This document shows, piece after piece, positions 1,570 through 35,123 of a stretch of 35,696 bases of DNA; position 1 is the stretch's first letter; each line of letters begins with the position of its first letter. The notes under the pieces were generated by a model. The model did no database searches, had not been told where the DNA came from, and saw only the letters and a list, made by a program, of their open reading frames with translations. This DNA is from a virus (lineage: Duplodnaviria > Caudoviricetes): positions 1 to 35,696 of IMG/VR virus record IMGVR_UViG_3300005403_000111, one strand, 5' to 3'. A program made the position numbers and the translations under genes.

Positions 1570-1833
1570 TCAAAATTTTATAATTCCAAAAATATCATCA
1601 GTTTCTAAAACTAGAAACTTCTCGCCGTCAAGTGAAATTTCATTGCCTGAGAATTTTCCAAAAACTACAACTTCACCGCAAGCCAACTCACTAACCTCTG
1701 CGCTTACTGCTATAACCTTCCCTTTTGAAGGTTTTTCTTGTGCATTATCAGGAATAATAATACCACTGCTTGTAGTATTTGCCTCTTCTTCTCTTTGTAC
1801 TAGGACTCTTTTGCCTAATGGTTGAAAATTCAT
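1570..1833 (-). CDS. groES: Co-chaperonin GroES
   Basis: [12 protein letters not shown]...[15 protein letters not shown]...DIFGII; SD AAGGAG upstream. Confidence 0.98.
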
Positions 1834-8243: not shown

Positions 8244-9184
8244 TGTTTGGATACTCCTATCATTGTGATTTGTGTGTCGATGACATTCGGATTATCGACG
8301 GGAAGAGAGAATTTTTCTATGTATGCGATGTTGTTCATCTCGTTAAACTCATCCATATTTGTCGGTATAAAAAGCATATTTTTCCCTATCATTTTTGAGA
8401 TTTTTTGAGATGTAAGGTTGAACTCCTCTACATCAAAAAGCACTTTTGCGCTAAGTACTCTGACTTGTCCGTATCTTAGAACTTTTCTTGTATGTGTAAA
8501 TTCATCCTCGGCGATGAGGCTTCTATCTTCAAATTCTAGATTTGTTCCATAGAGAGTTATGCCAAGTTCCTTTGCATTTCCAACCGTAAAAGTTCCTATC
8601 TCTACCTCACCCGTAAATGAAAGTTTTAGAGTTGAATTTGGATGCCATGTGAAGTTGTCTATGATCACTCTCGTCACATCTGCGGACTCTGTAAAAAAAT
8701 ACTCTTCAAGACTTAGGCAGTCGATATCTTTGCCGTCAATATCCAGCTCATTTAGCACTTCATCCGTATCGTTGTCTACTTGCTCTATATGTAGTGTTAC
8801 AAACTGAATGTCTATTGTTCCTATCGTGTCCAGCTGGTTAAACTCTAGCTCCATGTATATATCATTTCCTAACGTAGCCACACCGATGCCCTCGTCTATG
8901 GCGAACATTTTGTAACTATTTACAGGTCCAAAGTCAAACCATTTCTTTTTATCCGCAGGCGGAAAAACACCGCTTATGTTGTTGTCGGCACATTTGTAGA
9001 TTCTTTTCAATTCAGGAACGATCACATACTCTTCGGTATTGTAAATTGCACTTGGATCATACGAAGGATATGCTTCATCGGTTATGCCACTCAAAACGGT
9101 TGGAGGTTTGTAGTATTTAACACTGTAAAGAAGTCCGTTATCAAATACGGTAAAAGTCTGCACTAAAGGTTCTGCGTACTTCAT
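8240..9184 (-). CDS. Tail tip / distal tail-like protein
   Basis: Immediately after the tape measure (ATGA overlap); YPSYDPSAIY...RIYKC...W.DFGP.N...MF pattern. Confidence 0.55.
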   Translation of the reverse strand: MKYAEPLVQTFTVFDNGLLYSVKYYKPPTVLSGITDEAYPSYDPSAIYNTEEYVIVPELKRIYKCADNNISGVFPPADKKKWFDFGPVNSYKMFAIDEGIGVATLGNDIYMELEFNQLDTIGTIDIQFVTLHIEQVDNDTDEVLNELDIDGKDIDCLSLEEYFFTESADVTRVIIDNFTWHPNSTLKLSFTGEVEIGTFTVGNAKELGITLYGTNLEFEDRSLIAEDEFTHTRKVLRYGQVRVLSAKVLFDVEEFNLTSQKISKMIGKNMLFIPTNMDEFNEMNNIAYIEKFSLPVDNPNVIDTQITMIGVSKQ

Positions 9185-12100
9185 GATTCGTACCTGCTTG
9201 CTGCAGTATTTTTAGAGATTTGCGCTTGGTTTTTGTTACTCTCTTTTAGAAGCATTGCGACTTGATTTTTTAAGTCTCGAATCTCTTTTACCAGCATTCC
9301 CATACTAAGTGGATCATCGGGATTTTTAAGAGGCAATATAACTTCGTCATAATCTTTTTCTCCTATTAGCCCTATTGTTCCACCCATTCCACCTTTAACT
9401 AATCCACCGTCAGCAAAAGCGTGAATTGTTTTATACTCATTAGATTGTTTAAACAAATCATCAATCTGCTCAGCTTGAACCGCACCCGATGTTAGCTGTT
9501 CTGTCCAGTATGCCAAGCCCTCAGGGTCTGGTGCTCTGCCAAGAAGCGTGCTATACAGTTCAGGTAGCGCTGCCACGCCTATTGCCGTGGTTAAATTTGT
9601 CGGATTTATCGCACCACTGGAGACTTGTGTCTCCCAATAAGAAGCTCCTGCAGTTTCCGCTTCTCTACCTAAAATTGTTGAGTAGGCATATTGAACACTT
9701 GGGTCTACCGTAAAGCCTGTATCTTCCATTCCTTTAGGTAGCACAGATTTAGAGGCTGCCAAAGAGGCTGCTAGCGAATTACTAATATTTATACTCAAAG
9801 AGTTCATAGCAGCCACTAAGGCACTAGCTGTATTTGCAGTATTTACCTCAATTTTTTCTAAGTAATCCACCTCTTTTAAGGTTACATCTTGCAAACGTTC
9901 AAATTGATTTGCTGCCACGAGCTGATTAAATTCCATATCTCGTTGTGCTGAGAGCATATCCATATCAGGGGTGGTTTGAAATGTACTTATGTCAAACAGT
10001 ACCGAAGAAGCGTCTGTTACTCTTTTGATTGCGTTTGCATACTCTTCGTATTGGTCAGACAGGGAGAGCGCTTGAGCATCTGCCATTGCATCATAAAAAT
10101 CTTGCAGACTTCGTTCTGATGTTTTTGAAGCTCCTCGTAGCTTATCAACGGTGCTTGTGATAGTTCCTAGTGCTCCCTCAAGGGTAGATATACCGTCTGA
10201 TGCATCATCAAGCGTAATGTTTAAATCATCTATTTGCGTTTGATAAGCATCCGTATTTTCTAAAAGTGCCTTATTCGCATTTAGTAAATCAAGATCTGAG
10301 TCTGTTAAGCCGTCCATATCTTCACTTAAATTATAAAATAAAGCGGCTAGTCCATCTACGCTTGTTGCCAAAGAGACTCCCAGAGAAGACGCCAAGTTTT
10401 TAGCAAGCTGATCATCACTTAGCAGGCTATCGGTAAAGCTCTTTATGTTCTCTCTGCTCTTTGCCATCGCTTCTGCTACAAGTTCTATGCTCTCAAGATA
10501 GTTTAACGCTTCTCTCGCACCGCCATCGAAAGTCTCGCCTGTAACTTTTCCTAACTCTTCAACGGCTGCTATCTGTGCTTCTATATCTTCTTTGTTGTTA
10601 CTCATAAGAAGTGCAAAAGTTTCTTCAGTAAAAAATGTTTCAAGTGCTTGTATATCTTCGATACTTGTCTTTAGATAATCCGCAAAGCTTGCACCGCCTC
10701 GCAATTTATCAACATCGGCAAAAGCCTCGTTTAGCCTTTGCGTTTCGTAGAACATAGAGCCTGTTATGTCGTCATAAAAACCTTTAAAGTCTTTTGCTGC
10801 ATCTTTCAAATCCGACATTGAATCTATTACGCTTAAAGACCATTCAGAGGCTAAGTTTTGATACTCATTTATATCTCTCTCAATCTCTGCGTCTATAAAA
10901 GTTAGCATATTTTGCCAGTTGTACCCAGCTTCTAAAGCCGCACTTTGGTAAAGCGTTCCCGAGTAACCAGAGGTTGGTGTTATTTGTTCTGACATCGTAA
11001 CGAGGGTTTTTATTAGGTTTGTACCCTCTCTTAAAACATCTGCGTTGTACCCTATTTTAGTGCCTTGCGTTTGCCAAATATCTATGCCGTAGGTTTGTTG
11101 CCCTTGCAGATCTACGGCTGCTGTTTGGGTGGCGTTCATTCCTGCACTAACCAAGCCTTGTCTAGCTTTTTCTAAAACATCCTCTATCCAAAGAGAGGCT
11201 TCCTTTTTGAATGTTGTAGCAGCCAAGCCTATGCCCAGTTGAGATGCCGAGCCTTGTCTGTCGATAGATTCCAATAGCTCAACTTGTCTTTTAAGAAGGT
11301 CTGTAATAGGTGTGTATTTTGCTTCAGTTAGATCTCTGTTTTGGTCAAATGTAAATCCGGTTGATGTTACCGGAACACCGCCGCTGCCTCCGCCTGATTT
11401 ACCGATTGAAGACAATAATGCTCCGGTAGCGGCAACCGTTGCCGGAACTGTAATAAGGTTGAGCGGAAAAGGGTCGCCCCATGCACGGATTACGGCTCTA
11501 ACCGCCTGCACTACGGCGAGTCCCTTTTCTGCCGCTTGAGCGGTTTTTGACGCATTGTCACTTTGGCTCGCATAGTTGCTTACCGCACCAGACAAAGAGC
11601 CAAACGCACCGATATAGCTATCCATCTCTTGTTCTCGCAATACAGCTTGTTTCGCATCAAAATCCGAAAGAGCTACTTTTTCCTTTTGCTCATCCCCTTT
11701 TGCACTTATAAACGCTTTTGCATAATCTTCTTGAAATTTGATATCTGATTTTTCTAGTTTTAACCTATCTACATAAAACTTTTTAAAAGAGTTTCCAACC
11801 TCTGAAAGTGCTGCCGATTGTCCGCTTAGACCACTCGCCCAATCCTTGCCGCTCTCACTGAGCGCTATTTGCATATCTAACATATCTTGCATAGCGTTTG
11901 TAGATTCGGTTATGCTCTCAAGCAGAGCGTTTCGCTCCAGCATCTTATTTTGTTCATCTATTTTTACATTGACATCATTAAGTGCCGAACCTTGAAGATT
12001 TCGTAATGCTTCCTCCGCCCCTGCAACCTCAGAGTACTTAGCTATCAAGTTTTCATAATGCGTGTATGTTTCTAATGCCTCTTTTGTTAAACCATCTAAA

Positions 12101-13557
12101 AAATAAGAGTTCTTTTTATCAACTAGAGCATTTATATCATCAACGAAGTTCTCTTCTAGCTTTTTATGTTTTTCTAATGTTTTTGCTTTGTCATCCTCAG
12201 CTTTTTTGAGTGCATCAAGTTTGTATTTTGCTTCGATATCTACAAGAGCTTTATCTTGCAGAGTGCCAAGATTGCCTTTTGCACCTGCAACATCTTTGTA
12301 TTTTTCCTTAAGATCTTCATAATGTTGATAAACCGCCAATGCCTCTTTTGCCAAACCATCAAGAAAAAAAGTATTGCTGTCATTGTCTAGTTTTTTGACT
12401 TCATCGTAAAAACTTTTTTTTAATTTCAGGGCATCTTCATCTTCTTTTGTTTCTTTTGTGACAAGGCTACCCGTGCTTGAAGCACTTTCAAAATCCTTGA
12501 TTGCTCCTGTGGTTAGATGATCTACGTCTCCTTGTAGTTCCTTAATCTTGTTTTTTATAATTGCAATTCTTCTATTATCAAGTCCAAACCAAAGAACACC
12601 GTCATTTTTGTTTAACTCGTCCTGCGACTTAACAATCTGTCCTGCTAAATCTGCTATTTTAATGCTTGCTTCGGTTGTATTTTTAATCTGATTTATAGGT
12701 ATAGCCGCAATCCGAGCATCGTTAATTTTCTTTGTCCATGTGTCAAAAAGCCCTACGGATTCGTTCAGTCCCTTTTTCAACTCATCAAAAAGAGGTTCGG
12801 TTAGCGATCCTGCAAGCTTTGAAAAAGAGTTTTGCGCATTGCTCATAGCCTCGTCAAAGCTGCCGAATCCGCCTTTGATATCGACAAGTGCATCGTTGAT
12901 AGTTTTATAGATATCTTTTGAGTTTTTAAGGGCAGCGTTTGTGAGTCCCATATTTGCTAAAAAGCGCCCAAACTCACTATTCGCCTCAACCTGACCCTTT
13001 GCAAGTCCGTCCACGCCTGCCAAAAGCTGTTGAAACTCAACCCCCGCACTTCCTGCAGCGATGGATACTTTTTTGGTAAGCTCAACCATTTGGTCAGTAG
13101 ATACTCCCGACATCTTCATCGAAGAATACATAGACTTATATATCTCTACCGTTTGGCTAAGCGTGTGCGGTGTATCGGCGTTGATTGCCGCTAGTCTCTC
13201 CATCGCCTCACTTGCTTCACCTGCTGCAAGTGCATACTTTTTTGTTTGGTCGATTACTACGCCTGTCGTCGTTACATTGCCTGATGTAGCCACAGCAAGA
13301 GTAGTTAGAGAGTTTTTGAGATTTTCGGTGTTTTTGTTAAACTCGATACCGGAGGAAGCAACCGCCATAAACGCTTCTTTTAAAGCATAAACACTTACGG
13401 CGCCTGCAGCGAGAGTTTTTAGTTTTGTTCCAAAGGCAGAGACACTATTGTCGGTTTCTTTTACTTTTTCAGAGAGACCATTAAACTCCCTTCCTACAAC
13501 AGAGACGGCACCTGTATCTTTGTCAACAGATATTTTTATTTTTAGCGTCTTATCCAT
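9181..13557 (-). CDS. Tail tape measure protein with C-terminal DUF4214-like repeats
   Basis: 1458 aa, Ala/Leu-rich and helical; LKIKISVD start; C-terminal HAFADGG...IGEK..EVILPL; follows the tail chaperones. Confidence 0.9.
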   Translation of the reverse strand: MDKTLKIKISVDKDTGAVSVVGREFNGLSEKVKETDNSVSAFGTKLKTLAAGAVSVYALKEAFMAVASSGIEFNKNTENLKNSLTTLAVATSGNVTTTGVVIDQTKKYALAAGEASEAMERLAAINADTPHTLSQTVEIYKSMYSSMKMSGVSTDQMVELTKKVSIAAGSAGVEFQQLLAGVDGLAKGQVEANSEFGRFLANMGLTNAALKNSKDIYKTINDALVDIKGGFGSFDEAMSNAQNSFSKLAGSLTEPLFDELKKGLNESVGLFDTWTKKINDARIAAIPINQIKNTTEASIKIADLAGQIVKSQDELNKNDGVLWFGLDNRRIAIIKNKIKELQGDVDHLTTGAIKDFESASSTGSLVTKETKEDEDALKLKKSFYDEVKKLDNDSNTFFLDGLAKEALAVYQHYEDLKEKYKDVAGAKGNLGTLQDKALVDIEAKYKLDALKKAEDDKAKTLEKHKKLEENFVDDINALVDKKNSYFLDGLTKEALETYTHYENLIAKYSEVAGAEEALRNLQGSALNDVNVKIDEQNKMLERNALLESITESTNAMQDMLDMQIALSESGKDWASGLSGQSAALSEVGNSFKKFYVDRLKLEKSDIKFQEDYAKAFISAKGDEQKEKVALSDFDAKQAVLREQEMDSYIGAFGSLSGAVSNYASQSDNASKTAQAAEKGLAVVQAVRAVIRAWGDPFPLNLITVPATVAATGALLSSIGKSGGGSGGVPVTSTGFTFDQNRDLTEAKYTPITDLLKRQVELLESIDRQGSASQLGIGLAATTFKKEASLWIEDVLEKARQGLVSAGMNATQTAAVDLQGQQTYGIDIWQTQGTKIGYNADVLREGTNLIKTLVTMSEQITPTSGYSGTLYQSAALEAGYNWQNMLTFIDAEIERDINEYQNLASEWSLSVIDSMSDLKDAAKDFKGFYDDITGSMFYETQRLNEAFADVDKLRGGASFADYLKTSIEDIQALETFFTEETFALLMSNNKEDIEAQIAAVEELGKVTGETFDGGAREALNYLESIELVAEAMAKSRENIKSFTDSLLSDDQLAKNLASSLGVSLATSVDGLAALFYNLSEDMDGLTDSDLDLLNANKALLENTDAYQTQIDDLNITLDDASDGISTLEGALGTITSTVDKLRGASKTSERSLQDFYDAMADAQALSLSDQYEEYANAIKRVTDASSVLFDISTFQTTPDMDMLSAQRDMEFNQLVAANQFERLQDVTLKEVDYLEKIEVNTANTASALVAAMNSLSINISNSLAASLAASKSVLPKGMEDTGFTVDPSVQYAYSTILGREAETAGASYWETQVSSGAINPTNLTTAIGVAALPELYSTLLGRAPDPEGLAYWTEQLTSGAVQAEQIDDLFKQSNEYKTIHAFADGGLVKGGMGGTIGLIGEKDYDEVILPLKNPDDPLSMGMLVKEIRDLKNQVAMLLKESNKNQAQISKNTAASRYES

Positions 13558-21110: not shown

Positions 21111-22352
21111 ATGGGCATATCCTACGACTTTACCAAAGAGCCTAAAGAACTTGTAGAGTACCTAAAGCAAAAGGGTCTAGAACTTACATTTAACTATGAG
21201 GAGATGATGCATGAAGCACATCACAAAGCATTTACCGTTGCCAAAGTTACTAAGCTTGATTTGCTTTTCGATATTCACACTTCCTTACAGGAGGCACTTA
21301 GTGAGGGCAAGCCATTTGAACGGTGGCAAAAAGAGATCCGCCCGACACTACAAAAGAAAGGGTGGTGGGGCGAGACGGAAGTTACAAACCCTCAAACGGG
21401 GGAAATCAAAAACATCTTTGTAGGCTCAAGACGGCTAAAAACTATCTACGATACAAATATGAGAGTGGCATACGCACAGGGTCGCTACAAAAGCCAGATG
21501 CAAAGTGACGGAGAATACCTATACTACTCATCCGTACTAGATAGACTAACCAGACCCGCTCATTCTAAAATGCACGGAACTCTGCTGCCCAAAACACACA
21601 AGTGGTGGGATACGAATTATCCGCCAAACGGCTGGCGTTGCAGGTGCAAAGTAAGAGTTTATACAAAAGAAGAATTAGAAGCCAAAGGACTAAAACCCTC
21701 AAACTTCACACCGCCTAATATAGCAGATAAAGACTGGGCGTATAATCCCGGCAAAACGGACAACATAGAGCAGATTTATAGCGAGAAGATAGGAAAGATT
21801 GAGGATAACTCTTTTCAAAATGCAGTAGAACTTACTCGAAAAAAAGACGAAGTAACAAAAAATAGAGTAATAGCGAATAAGCTGCTAAATGAGATGATAG
21901 ATGAAGTAATAGTAAAAAAGAATCAGAAGTATTTAGCAAACAGTGTACTAGTCGGAGAAATCTCACAGAGCGTAAAAAAACAAGCAGAGGATATTTTAGG
22001 CAAAGAGATCGTAGCGGATGGTATTGTGCTGGAAAAGAACAGACTCCTTCACGCAAGTCCCGATAGAAAAGAAGTCTACGGACAAGCTCTAAGAGTAGAA
22101 GAGATGAGGCAGATAGTGGATGTGATTGATAAGGCGGAGGATGTCTATATTGACACTTCAAGCAATCATCAAAACATCATCTATGCTTTTGAAGACACAA
22201 AAGATAAAACAAAGATAAACCTTATCCCCGTAGAGATATTAAAAAAGATAAAAAAGTTTGGCAAGGATTGTTTTATCATAACTTTTGATAAGCAAAATAT
22301 GAGTGATTTTGAGGCGAAAATAAAAGGGAATGTTATAAAAAAAGTGAAGTGA
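21111..22352 (+). CDS. MuF (gpF) minor head protein with C-terminal BECR/PBECR-like nuclease extension
   Basis: MuF motifs AFTVAKV, RRLKTIYDTN, D..TRP.H, YPPNGWRCRC and DWAYNPG, then ~200 extra aa with LLH...RK..GQAL..EE..I..VI....VYID...NIIY.F...IITFDK. Confidence 0.85.
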   Translation: MGISYDFTKEPKELVEYLKQKGLELTFNYEEMMHEAHHKAFTVAKVTKLDLLFDIHTSLQEALSEGKPFERWQKEIRPTLQKKGWWGETEVTNPQTGEIKNIFVGSRRLKTIYDTNMRVAYAQGRYKSQMQSDGEYLYYSSVLDRLTRPAHSKMHGTLLPKTHKWWDTNYPPNGWRCRCKVRVYTKEELEAKGLKPSNFTPPNIADKDWAYNPGKTDNIEQIYSEKIGKIEDNSFQNAVELTRKKDEVTKNRVIANKLLNEMIDEVIVKKNQKYLANSVLVGEISQSVKKQAEDILGKEIVADGIVLEKNRLLHASPDRKEVYGQALRVEEMRQIVDVIDKAEDVYIDTSSNHQNIIYAFEDTKDKTKINLIPVEILKKIKKFGKDCFIITFDKQNMSDFEAKIKGNVIKKVK

Positions 22353-22447
22353 GCGGCGGCAAGACTTGCACTTGCAATACTAGTGCCAAGATTTTAGTCT
22401 CGGTCTATCTGCTTACTATATTCGCACTATCAACCGCTACTTCACTT
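22337..22447 (-). ncRNA. tRNA-like structured RNA antisense/convergent to the MuF 3' end
   Basis: Folds as a cloverleaf: closing stem, D-like arm, extended anticodon-like arm with CUAAAA loop, 5-nt variable loop, T-arm GCAAG-UGCAAGU-CUUGC, then U7. G-U pairs form only on the minus strand. Confidence 0.75.
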
Positions 22448-22452
22448 TTAAA

Positions 22453-22461
22453 ATTATACCA
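22453..22461 (-). promoter_or_regulatory. Extended -10 promoter of the tRNA-like RNA
   Basis: TGGTATAAT on the minus strand, about 6 nt upstream of the 5' arm of the closing stem. Confidence 0.75.
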
Positions 22462-22474
22462 CAAAGGCTAAAAC

Positions 22475-22948
22475 ATGTCCATCGAAATAACAGGCTTAGA
22501 AACCATCCAAAAGAGCCTAAACACTCTATCTCAGAGCTTAGGCAAAACAGAGATGAAAAGCACGATGACTACTATCGGGAATATGATAACAAACACGATA
22601 GAAGAGAGTTTTGAGAGAGAGCAGAGTCCATGGGGAGAAAAATGGCGAGAGTTAGATCCAAAAACAAAAAAACAAAAGCAGCGTAAAGGTAAAAGCAATC
22701 TTATCTTAAGAAGCAGCGGCGACTTAGCTGACGAATGGCAAGTCACGGCAAGTAGTGAGAGTGTAGAAGTAAGCAGCAATGCCAAGAGTGAAAAGGAGTT
22801 TGCGTATGGTGCAGTACATCAATGGGGAAGCAAGAAAGTAGCGGCAAGAAAGTTTCTGCCTATAAGTGAAAGTGGGGAGCTTGAGCCGAAGCTGCAAAAG
22901 CAGATAGAGGGATATTTGGATAGCAAGATTGAGCAGGCTATAAAATAA
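22475..22948 (+). CDS. Virion morphogenesis protein, Mu gpG family
   Basis: FEREQSPWGEKW..L...T, IL..SG.L, YGAVHQWG and ARKFLPI motifs. Confidence 0.9.
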   Translation: MSIEITGLETIQKSLNTLSQSLGKTEMKSTMTTIGNMITNTIEESFEREQSPWGEKWRELDPKTKKQKQRKGKSNLILRSSGDLADEWQVTASSESVEVSSNAKSEKEFAYGAVHQWGSKKVAARKFLPISESGELEPKLQKQIEGYLDSKIEQAIK

Positions 22949-33725: not shown

Positions 33726-35123
33726 ATGGAAAATAGTTTTTTACTAATAAGTGGTTTGTTGATTTTGCCTTTAATAGTAGGCTACTTAGTGTACTACGCA
33801 ACATCGAAAAAATTCACTAAACAGGTCTCAGAGTATAAAAGTCTTGATAAAGCTTTAAAAGAGCATACCGTGCTTCTTGATGCTAAAAAGTCAGAAATCA
33901 ACGAAGCAACAGTATTGTTAGAACAATTAAAACAAGAGTCTAAAGATATTTTTGCACTGCGAGACAGAGCAGATGAGCTTACTAAAATCGTAACAGAAAG
34001 AACTAGTGAACTTGAAGCTATGCAAGAGGCTTATAATGAGCTACAACAACTAAAAAGTGAGCTTGATTTATACTCACGCATTGAAAAATTTGTTGATTAT
34101 GGGCTATTTGAAGAACCAGAGTATTTGTATGAGACATCGGAAAGATTTGCGATTGAGATTCAAAGAGTTCGAGAACAACAGAAAAAACTTATTAGTCAAA
34201 ATATTGCTATTGAACTTCCAGATGATGATATTAGTGTTGACGGAAGTTCCAAAAACGGTAAAGCAATATTAGATGGACAATCAAAACTTATGTTAAAAGC
34301 GTTCAATATCGAATGTGACTATTTAATTGGAAAACTAAATATTTCTAACTTTGACAGAACTATGGAACAAATAGAAAAAAGTGCCGAGAAGCTTGAAAAG
34401 TTATCAATGACTTTGCTTTGTGGTTTCAATATAGAGTATGTTAATTTAAAATTTGAAGAGTGTAAATTGCAGTATCAATTTAAGCTTAAGAAAAACGCTG
34501 AACTTGAAGAGCAGAAAGCCATTAAAGAGCAAATGAGGGAGGAAGAAAAAGCGAGAAGAGAGTTTGAAAAAGCTATCAGAGATGCAGAAAAAGAAGAAAG
34601 AATGTATGCAGACTTACTCGAAAAAGCTAAAGCACAGATAGAAACTGCTGCGGAAGATGATAGAGCTATTTTGGCTGCAAAAATAGAAATGCTTCAGCAG
34701 CAATTGCTTGAAGCTCAAGAGAAAGAAACTAGAGCTAAAAGTATGGCAGAACAAACCAAAAGAGGTCATGTCTATGTTATTAGTAATATAGGTTCTTTCG
34801 GTGATGATGTTTACAAAATAGGGCTTACTAGAAGATTAGAACCTATGGATAGAATAAAAGAACTTGGTGATGCAAGCGTACCTTTTCAATTTGATGTCCA
34901 TGCGATGATTTATAGCGAAGATGCACCAGCAATGGAAGCAACTTTACATAGAGAATTTGATAAATACCGAGTCAATGCAGTAAACAGAAGAAAAGAATTT
35001 TTCAGCGTATCATTAAGTGAAATTAAAATTACAGTCGAAAAACTACACGGTCAAGAAAAAGATTTCAAGATGACAGCTTTAGCTGAAGAGTATTATGAAA
35101 CATTGCGGTTGCTTGGAAGATGA
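33726..35123 (+). CDS. Membrane-anchored DUF4041 + T5orf172 (GIY-YIG-like) protein
   Basis: N-terminal TM and coiled coil; LMLKAFNIECD and EQMREEEKA (DUF4041); GHVYVISNIGSFG..VYKIGLTRR.EP.DRI.ELGDASVPF.FDVHA and RKEFF. Confidence 0.9.
   Translation: MENSFLLISGLLILPLIVGYLVYYATSKKFTKQVSEYKSLDKALKEHTVLLDAKKSEINEATVLLEQLKQESKDIFALRDRADELTKIVTERTSELEAMQEAYNELQQLKSELDLYSRIEKFVDYGLFEEPEYLYETSERFAIEIQRVREQQKKLISQNIAIELPDDDISVDGSSKNGKAILDGQSKLMLKAFNIECDYLIGKLNISNFDRTMEQIEKSAEKLEKLSMTLLCGFNIEYVNLKFEECKLQYQFKLKKNAELEEQKAIKEQMREEEKARREFEKAIRDAEKEERMYADLLEKAKAQIETAAEDDRAILAAKIEMLQQQLLEAQEKETRAKSMAEQTKRGHVYVISNIGSFGDDVYKIGLTRRLEPMDRIKELGDASVPFQFDVHAMIYSEDAPAMEATLHREFDKYRVNAVNRRKEFFSVSLSEIKITVEKLHGQEKDFKMTALAEEYYETLRLLGR

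What the first reader, a model, noticed from the sequence alone, without database searches (positions are those of the whole stretch)
21754..22461. MuF-fused BECR-like RNase paired with a convergent tRNA-mimic RNA: candidate toxin / tRNA-decoy antitoxin system
Seen: MuF has a ~200-aa C-terminal extension, and the next gene is the structural gpG, so there is no protein immunity ORF. The 122-bp gap instead holds a perfect minus-strand TGGTATAAT promoter (22461-22453). It points at a ~111-nt RNA: AAGUGAAGU AGCGGUUG AUA GUGC GAAUAUAGUAA GCAG A UAG A CCGAGA CUAAAA UCUUGG CA CUA GUAUU GCAAG UGCAAGU CUUGC CGCCGCU C ACUUCACUU UUUUU. This has tRNA arm order: acceptor-like stem, D-like arm, anticodon-like arm, 5-nt variable loop, and a 5-bp/7-nt T-arm abutting the acceptor 3' strand. 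It cannot be a working tRNA. There is no CCA, the acceptor is prolonged by a perfect 11-bp IR (22340-22350 / 22439-22449) ending in U7, and the anticodon arm is lengthened. Its loop is CUAAAA, one base short of a Leu/Phe-type CU-NAA-AA loop. The D-loop has AG instead of GG and the T-loop UGC instead of UUC, changes at the partnered 18/55 positions that suggest the elbow is retained. G-U pairs work only on the minus strand. Established: MuF proteins carry polymorphic C-terminal toxins, and the BECR fold includes the tRNA anticodon nucleases colicin E5 and colicin D. Inference: the extension is a PBECR-type tRNase delivered with the virion, and the lysogen constitutively makes a decoy tRNA that neutralises it. 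The RNA might also protect against superinfecting relatives. I know of no description of this pairing, but could not search.
Basis: partly seen in the sequence, partly recalled or inferred. Interest (0 to 1): 0.92.

Follow-up and report, generated by a model that had tools for sequence, protein, structure and literature searches.

The report
tRNA-shaped RNA immunity for phage toxin
A phage head-protein gene ending in a predicted RNA-cutting toxin domain is followed, where a protective protein gene normally sits, by an oppositely oriented predicted gene for a small tRNA-shaped RNA; the pairing recurs across many related phages, so the RNA likely serves as the antidote, a form of toxin immunity we did not find described.

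Summary
MuF (21111-22352) ends in a BECR-fold, PBECR3-related domain that keeps the His and beta-4 Thr of colicin-D-like RNases. The 122-bp gap before gpG holds a convergent extended -10 promoter and a ~110-nt tRNA-like RNA; Rfam and ARAGORN give no real match. A tRNA-type T-arm lies within 20 nt of the stop codon in 37 of 43 de-duplicated homologous loci, and in 0 of 9 controls (short MuF, peptidase-like tail, degenerate active site). Of 23 pairs, 20 show compensatory changes, and the D-loop/T-loop elbow positions are conserved or co-vary. The RNA is polymorphic and also occurs in orphan 'toxin tail + RNA' cassettes, like CDI immunity arrays. RNA type follows toxin clade only partly. Expression, toxicity and binding are untested. 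Best reading (~0.6): an RNA immunity factor for virion-delivered PBECR RNases.

The parts
21111..21752 (+). MuF N-terminal head-morphogenesis region (Phage_Mu_F, residues 54-181)
   Evidence: Pfam PF04233 E=5.6e-21; phrog_220 minor head/DNA pilot
21870..22352 (+). C-terminal BECR-fold, PBECR3-related predicted RNase domain (residues ~254-413); K309, H314, R319, K320, N370, T391, K394 invariant in the 8 closest homologs
   Evidence: AF2 model pLDDT 93; VIA top rows CdiA-CT, colicin E5, RelE, colicin D; PBECR3 hits in 4 of 26 homologs
22050..22052 (+). His314 codon, end of the pre-alpha helix (predicted catalytic)
   Evidence: Pham et al. section 10
22281..22283 (+). Thr391 codon, end of beta-4 (predicted catalytic)
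   Evidence: Iyer et al. section 19
22453..22481 (-). Predicted sigma-70 promoter with extended -10 (22461-22453); the -35 box overlaps the gpG start
   Evidence: an exact extended -10 in 23 of 43 de-duplicated family loci
22337..22447 (-). Predicted ~110-nt tRNA-like RNA (family type A)
   Evidence: CM 63 bits, training member
22431..22449 (-). 5' strand of the extended acceptor-like stem
   Evidence: helix 1: 9 of 10 pairs compensatory
22410..22426 (-). D-like arm; A18 at 22417, G19 at 22416
22381..22407 (-). Middle (anticodon-position) arm; stem present, length and loop not conserved
22359..22375 (-). T-arm, 5 bp plus 7-nt loop (U54, G55, C56, A58)
   Evidence: 100% of cells paired, 3 of 5 pairs compensatory; U54/A58 and G19/C56 in 19 of 19
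22337..22358 (-). 3' acceptor strand and U7 tail, antisense to the last 5 codons and stop of MuF; no CCA
22475..22948 (+). gpG-like virion morphogenesis gene (not an immunity protein)
   Evidence: Pfam PF05069 E=2.4e-16

Best explanation
The MuF gene carries a predicted colicin-D-like RNase domain and sits tail-to-tail with a conserved, predicted tRNA-shaped RNA gene under its own predicted promoter, and this RNA likely acts as the domain's antitoxin by binding it through a tRNA-like elbow and acceptor/T helix. Shown: the gene arrangement, the conserved fold, co-occurrence with intact active-site residues, RNA polymorphism, and orphan cassettes. Inferred: the RNA is made constitutively by the lysogen and during late infection; MuF is packaged and delivered with the DNA; the domain cuts RNA (most likely tRNA); the RNA occupies its substrate site without serving in translation (no CCA, no conserved anticodon); and extra RNA copies give immunity to rival phages' toxins.
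For: (1) T-arm within 20 nt of the stop in 95 of 103 family loci (37 of 43 de-duplicated) versus 0 of 9 controls. Four of the 8 misses have a variant RNA (L019, L023, L142; L153 at 30.6 bits). (2) 87.3% of cells paired vs 66.2% shuffled; 20 of 23 pairs compensatory, 0 of 500 shuffles; slid controls 35-50%. (3) Tertiary elbow positions: G19/C56 and U54/A58 in 19 of 19; 18/55 is A/G in 16, G/U in 2, C/U in 1. Antisense pairing would not need these. (4) L120 (lost His and beta-4 Ser) and L047 (lost beta-4 Thr and an Arg) have no room for the RNA (gaps -4 and 10). Phage Mu gp30, called inactive by Iyer et al., overlaps gpG by 4 nt. (5) The 3 peptidase-like MuF tails are followed by an 80-95-aa ORF instead. 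(6) Orphan arrays: L191 has three orphan C-terminal pieces, each followed by a different RNA; L192 and L193 have tail+RNA cassettes with their own promoter. An orphan clade-B tail carries a type-B RNA. L102 keeps, one place further out, an RNA 99% identical to the proximal RNA of L168, which has a near-identical tail. (7) Reverse test: 8 of 10 CM hits in 151 Campylobacterota genomes abut the domain or its tail. (8) The domain at the end of polyvalent proteins (L003, L194/L195, L196) also has a convergent T-arm RNA.
Against: No expression, toxicity or binding data. RNA type follows the toxin tree only partly: clade B has B/B2 RNAs in all 10 of its representatives, but near-sister domains carry different types (L017 A vs L021 D; L104 A vs L103 C; L163 A vs L192 C, differing in the last ~13 residues), and types C and D occur with two protein clades. 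Physical linkage alone would explain tail-RNA co-travel. One rearranged lineage (L027 = L107, L117, L119) keeps the core residues but has no RNA within 1.2-1.4 kb; its last ~5 residues are replaced. One strong RNA hit (L212) stands alone without the domain. Structural match Z is modest (4.5), Foldseek PDB gave nothing, and the window's domain itself has no PBECR Pfam hit. The A18/G55 switch may be a single evolutionary event.
Confidence: 0.6

Rival explanations
1. Cis-antisense / type-I-like control: the convergent RNA or its transcription silences leaky muF-gpG mRNA, and the tRNA fold merely stabilises it.
For: The RNA is fully complementary to the muF-gpG intergenic mRNA and overlaps the last codons. 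Convergent 3' overlap is the classic type I layout (recalled). RNAs swap among near-identical toxin cores. It would also be dispensable for dead domains.
Against: Conserved tertiary elbow positions. Distal foreign RNAs are kept in arrays, and diverse types are kept by one phage. The complementary bases are locked in the acceptor helix.
Confidence: 0.15
2. The RNA is a cofactor or cargo of the domain rather than an inhibitor (for example an RNP packaged in the virion, or a processed substrate or guide); the RNA is the diversifying specificity element.
For: The exchanged unit is often only the last 13-40 residues plus the RNA while the core stays the same. The middle arm is hypervariable.
Against: Orphan RNAs with only a tail fragment persist as relics (L200-L202). 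The predicted constitutive promoter is independent of the late operon. The middle arm is a closed hairpin with no obvious guide segment.
Confidence: 0.14
3. The RNA is an independent anti-defence decoy that soaks up host tRNA-binding or tRNA-cutting defence proteins and merely shares an insertion hotspot with MuF.
For: tRNA mimicry; polymorphism; a solo copy at L212.
Against: Absent in 0 of 9 control MuF loci at the same hotspot; follows the domain into polyvalent proteins and orphan cassettes; other PBECR classes have different, non-T-arm RNAs.
Confidence: 0.07
4. A degenerate tRNA remnant or an elaborate bidirectional terminator without an RNA product.
For: IR plus U-run; ARAGORN copies of one family member tRNA-Lys.
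Against: Dedicated promoter conserved; compensatory changes in all four helices; no CCA or conserved anticodon.
Confidence: 0.04

Closest known systems
MuF polymorphic toxins (Jamet et al. 2017, PMC5576092; passages and section 8 read)
   Same: N-terminal MuF plus an exchangeable C-terminal toxin domain in the head module of a temperate phage.
   Different: There, 89.4% of toxin genes are followed by a small same-strand ORF taken as immunity. Here that slot holds a convergent RNA gene. The passages seen mention no RNA partner.
PBECR / MuF-C domains (Iyer et al. 2017, PMC5512222, passages and section 19; Pham et al. bioRxiv 10.64898/2026.08.28.747851, abstract, passages and section 10)
   Same: BECR fold, His in the (pre-alpha) helix and Thr/Ser in beta-4, MuF fusion, polyvalent-protein context in Helicobacter phages.
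   Different: The parts read name no inhibitor or RNA partner for PBECRs ('ncRNA' and 'non-coding' occur 0 times in Pham et al.). This family scores below the PBECR3 cut-off.
Type III toxin-antitoxin systems (ToxIN, CptIN, TenpIN, AbiF, AvcID; definition from abstracts in the listing, other details recalled)
   Same: Protein toxin, often an RNase, predicted to be held by a non-coding RNA.
   Different: ToxI-type antitoxins are upstream, co-transcribed repeat arrays cut by the toxin. This RNA is single-unit, downstream, convergent, separately promoted and tRNA-shaped, and the toxin is a virion-protein fusion.
CDI / Rhs orphan toxin-immunity arrays (recalled)
   Same: Downstream orphan C-terminal fragments each paired with their own partner, anchored at a conserved motif.
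   Different: The partner is an RNA, not a protein, and the swapped protein part may be only the terminal tail.
Bacterial Y RNA YrlA and other tRNA mimics (recalled)
   Same: D/T elbow and acceptor-like helix kept, anticodon function lost.
   Different: No Rfam match; no Ro60 gene among the window's Pfam hits.

Membership tests
MuF polymorphic toxin | N-terminal Phage_Mu_F domain in a head module | tested here: met
MuF polymorphic toxin | Exchangeable C-terminal domain | tested here: met
   four PBECR-like classes, peptidase-like and short forms on related MuF
MuF polymorphic toxin | Small downstream immunity ORF | tested here: not met
   next gene is gpG; the gap is the RNA
MuF polymorphic toxin | Toxic activity | not testable with these tools
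   needs an expression assay
PBECR / Colicin-like BECR | BECR fold (pre-alpha, alpha, meander sheet) | tested here: met
   AF2 elements; the 16 top VIA rows are BECR-type RNases or RelE-family toxins, Z 3.3-4.5 (fold labels recalled); Atlas structure rows are MuF_C/PBECR clusters
PBECR / Colicin-like BECR | His in helix and Thr/Ser in beta-4 | tested here: met
   H314, T391; both motifs matched in 99 of 103 family loci by a loose pattern
PBECR3 (PF18812) | Score above the curated cut-off | tested here: inconclusive
   window domain has no hit; 4 of 26 homologs hit, best E 5.6e-5
Type III TA | RNA binds and inhibits the protein toxin | not testable with these tools
   genetic association only
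Type III TA (ToxIN-like) | Antitoxin is an upstream, co-transcribed tandem-repeat array | tested here: not met
   downstream, convergent, own promoter, single unit
Type I TA | Convergent antisense RNA overlapping the toxin mRNA | tested here: met
   16-nt CDS overlap plus the whole intergenic mRNA
Type I TA | Acts by base-pairing to block or degrade toxin mRNA | not testable with these tools
   the conserved elbow argues for a protein-facing fold
tRNA | Cloverleaf arm order, T-arm, elbow contacts | tested here: met
tRNA | 7-nt anticodon loop, 7-bp acceptor with CCA end | tested here: not met

The most novel reading that the evidence does not exclude
PBECR domains across bacterial phyla form a polymorphic toxin system whose immunity factors are structured RNAs. 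Each PBECR class has its own RNA fold (tRNA-elbow mimics for this class). Phages collect foreign RNAs in orphan arrays to resist RNases injected by competing phages, giving RNA-based superinfection immunity.
Probability: 0.45. Interest if true: 0.95.

Novelty: categorically new. Interest (0 to 1): 0.87.

Why it matters
PBECR domains are reported in up to 26% of polyvalent proteins (Iyer et al.), yet the texts read give no account of how a phage carrying one avoids poisoning its host. If true, this supplies the missing immunity factor and shows polymorphic-toxin immunity encoded as RNA, with tRNA mimicry as an inhibition strategy. It also adds several uncatalogued RNA families. The test is direct: one domain, one 110-nt RNA, a plate assay. 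Named cultured phages carry the pairing (Campylobacter CAM-P21) or a candidate of it (Haemophilus SuMu, RcapMu, Meiothermus MMP17).

Tried and rejected
Anticodon-decoy reading: rejected, loop not conserved. Rfam gave no family for the pairing RNA in the window, in 5 loci (E <= 1) or in two sets of 20 loci at gathering score; the only gathering hit was a separate tRNA at L065:4240-4324. BLASTN of the gap against phages: no match. Foldseek against PDB: no match at E <= 0.001, inconclusive. Expression: no RNA holder listed, and 0 reads laid from 4 RNA runs on L090; this is no test. My 'closing helix >= 7 bp' measure passed in every class including controls, so it is uninformative; the loose -10 pattern also passed 3 of 3 peptidase controls. 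Folding z-scores of the six gaps behind PBECR-type tails in cultured-phage or prophage records were weak (+0.2 to -2.2), so those RNAs are candidates read by eye, without covariation. Thermodynamics favours the T-stem (p > 0.5) in only 8 of 16 homologs. The diverse alignments A2 and A4 were too divergent for some collection scans. A whole-record search for a remote RNA in the L027 lineage was not possible because the records were not held. Literature: 8 searches listed no paper on this pairing; 'PBECR' occurs in only 4 papers of the library. Subscription journals, supplements of the three papers read, and large RNA-motif catalogues' supplements were not seen and may hold the motif.

Full report
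Context. The window is a single 35.7-kb virus record with Mu-like transposase, terminase, portal, gpI, gpT and GemA. Its MuF relatives lie in Campylobacter, Helicobacter, Sulfurovum and kin. MuF is 21111-22352 (+) and gpG is 22475-22948 (+).

Observation. The promoter, IR, U7, arm order and lack of CCA are all as reported. The RNA folds better than shuffles (z -3.09). The cloverleaf is 1.5 kcal/mol above a rod-like MFE, so comparative data were needed. ARAGORN and Rfam find nothing real in the window.

The protein. Residues ~254-413 have no Pfam hit themselves. Homologs hit PBECR3 (4 of 26) and MuF_C (3 of 26) weakly. Atlas neighbours by features and structure are PBECR2/MuF_C/LPD3 clusters (feature scores under 0.9, a lead only). 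An AF2 model (pLDDT 93) gave no Foldseek PDB match. It matched viral polyvalent 'nuclease' and MuF-C proteins in BFVD. In the VIA search its best rows were a Klebsiella CdiA-CT (Z 4.5, rmsd 4.1, 94 aligned), colicin E5 (Z 4.2), RelE-family toxins and colicin D; the Z values are modest but the top rows are of one fold. His314 ends a helix and Thr391 ends the last core strand; both are invariant in the 8 closest homologs and at least 90% conserved in 19 diverse ones. This matches the active-site layout given by Iyer et al. (section 19) and Pham et al. (section 10). RNase activity and a tRNA target are inferred from that.

The RNA is a conserved family. I gathered 160 loci. I dropped 3 (the window's own contig, a duplicate, a polyvalent gene treated separately) and 8 truncated ones, added the window, and analysed 150. 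For counts a further 7 were dropped (3 with under 130 nt downstream, 4 frameshifted or fragmentary), leaving 143, some fetched twice. A T-arm lies within 20 nt of the stop in 95 of 103 loci of the window's domain family (37 of 43 de-duplicated) and in 4 of 4 of a second class. It lies there in 0 of 4 short MuF, 0 of 3 peptidase-like and 0 of 2 degenerate loci. On 17 hand-picked relatives of the window's RNA, 87.3% of cells pair (shuffled 66.2%, slid 35-50%) and 20 of 23 pairs change on both sides (the structure was derived from these sequences, and relatedness inflates such counts). The elbow positions G19/C56 and U54/A58 hold in 19 of 19, and position 18 switches with position 55 (A/G 16, G/U 2, C/U 1). 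The middle arm varies in length and its loop (3-8 nt) shares no sequence. What is conserved is therefore the elbow and the acceptor/T stack, not an anticodon.

Tie to the domain. A covariance model hit 10 of 151 Campylobacterota genomes. Eight hits abut the domain or its last ~40 codons; one strong hit stands alone and one weak hit lies in another phage context. The domain at the end of polyvalent proteins also has a convergent T-arm RNA. Other C-terminal classes, including PBECR2 above the Pfam cut-off, have convergent promoters and differently shaped candidate RNAs (read by eye). Where predicted catalytic residues are lost (L120, L047), the next gene abuts the stop, as in phage Mu. Peptidase-like tails have a small ORF instead. 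Among 17 annotated phage records (an 18th was unannotated and left out), the 5 with PBECR2/3 above cut-off (SuMu, 3927AP2, MMP17, RcapMu, Lsp-JY19) and one Helicobacter prophage have gaps of 92-185 nt. Five of these six show a convergent promoter-like box and a candidate RNA by eye; one is unclear. Four long MuFs without a PBECR hit and three short ones overlap or abut the next gene, and four records are uninformative.

Polymorphism and arrays. At least eight RNA types occur. L030, L032, L102 and L142 carry two in tandem. L191 has three orphan C-terminal pieces, each followed by its own RNA; L192 and L193 have promoter-bearing tail+RNA cassettes; L200-L202 are tail+RNA relics. This is the layout of orphan immunity arrays (recalled). 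Cognate pairing is clear for clade B, including an orphan B tail, and suggested by L102/L168. It is not strict in the main clade, where RNA type changes with only the last ~13 residues. Either the tail sets specificity, or the RNAs cross-react, or the RNA is not an inhibitor. One rearranged lineage lacks a nearby RNA.

Verdict. The feature is real, widespread, and not found in eight literature searches or in Rfam. An earlier unchecked scan note (e1-6788319) saw a convergent RNA beside another MuF; it is not independent support. Best mechanism: RNA immunity by tRNA-shape mimicry (0.6). Rivals: antisense control (0.15), RNA cofactor or cargo (0.14), independent decoy (0.07), remnant (0.04). No expression data were obtained. 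It works like a type III antitoxin in a polymorphic-toxin setting, but fails a defining feature of each family.

Noticed in passing
L083:3742-4962: The MuF tail and RNA are duplicated around two inserted ORFs (77 and 148 aa, no Pfam hit); the distal copy has the promoter and scores 48.7 bits on the model, the proximal 21.7.
   Followed up: partly
L027:3709 onward (also L107, L117, L119): The same junction replaces the last ~5 codons of the toxin and removes the RNA; the genes upstream differ between contigs, suggesting a recombination hotspot or inversion.
   Followed up: partly
L212:1501-1600 (G029): A type-A RNA stands alone in a chromosome after a hemC-like gene (named by eye), preceded by other structured sequence; a possible host-captured immunity RNA.
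   Followed up: no
L065:4240-4324: A separate tRNA-like gene (Rfam tRNA 35 bits, long variable arm, no CCA) lies after gpG in a PBECR2 phage.
   Followed up: no
L009, L010, L020, L121, L015, L152, L222, L225 (gaps after MuF): A further RNA family with an expanded T-loop-like hairpin appears shared between Campylobacterota class-2 tails and Pasteurellaceae PBECR3 phages.
   Followed up: partly
L065, L068, L071, L075, L076, L080, L072, L077, L084, L154 (gaps after MuF): PBECR2 tails pair with short non-T-arm RNAs of several types, which were not modelled.
   Followed up: no
L081, L145, L148: MuF with a peptidase-like tail (motif judged by eye) is followed by an 80-95-aa ORF of no known family: a candidate protein immunity pair.
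   Followed up: partly
window 9181-13557 (-): The 1458-aa tape-measure-like protein ends in DUF4214 repeats.
   Followed up: no
window 33726-35123 (+): DUF4041 / T5orf172 (MUG113) protein next to the repressor; a possible defence or cargo gene.
   Followed up: no
window 1570-1833 (-): A host groES gene at the left end suggests a prophage junction or Mu-type packaged host DNA.
   Followed up: no
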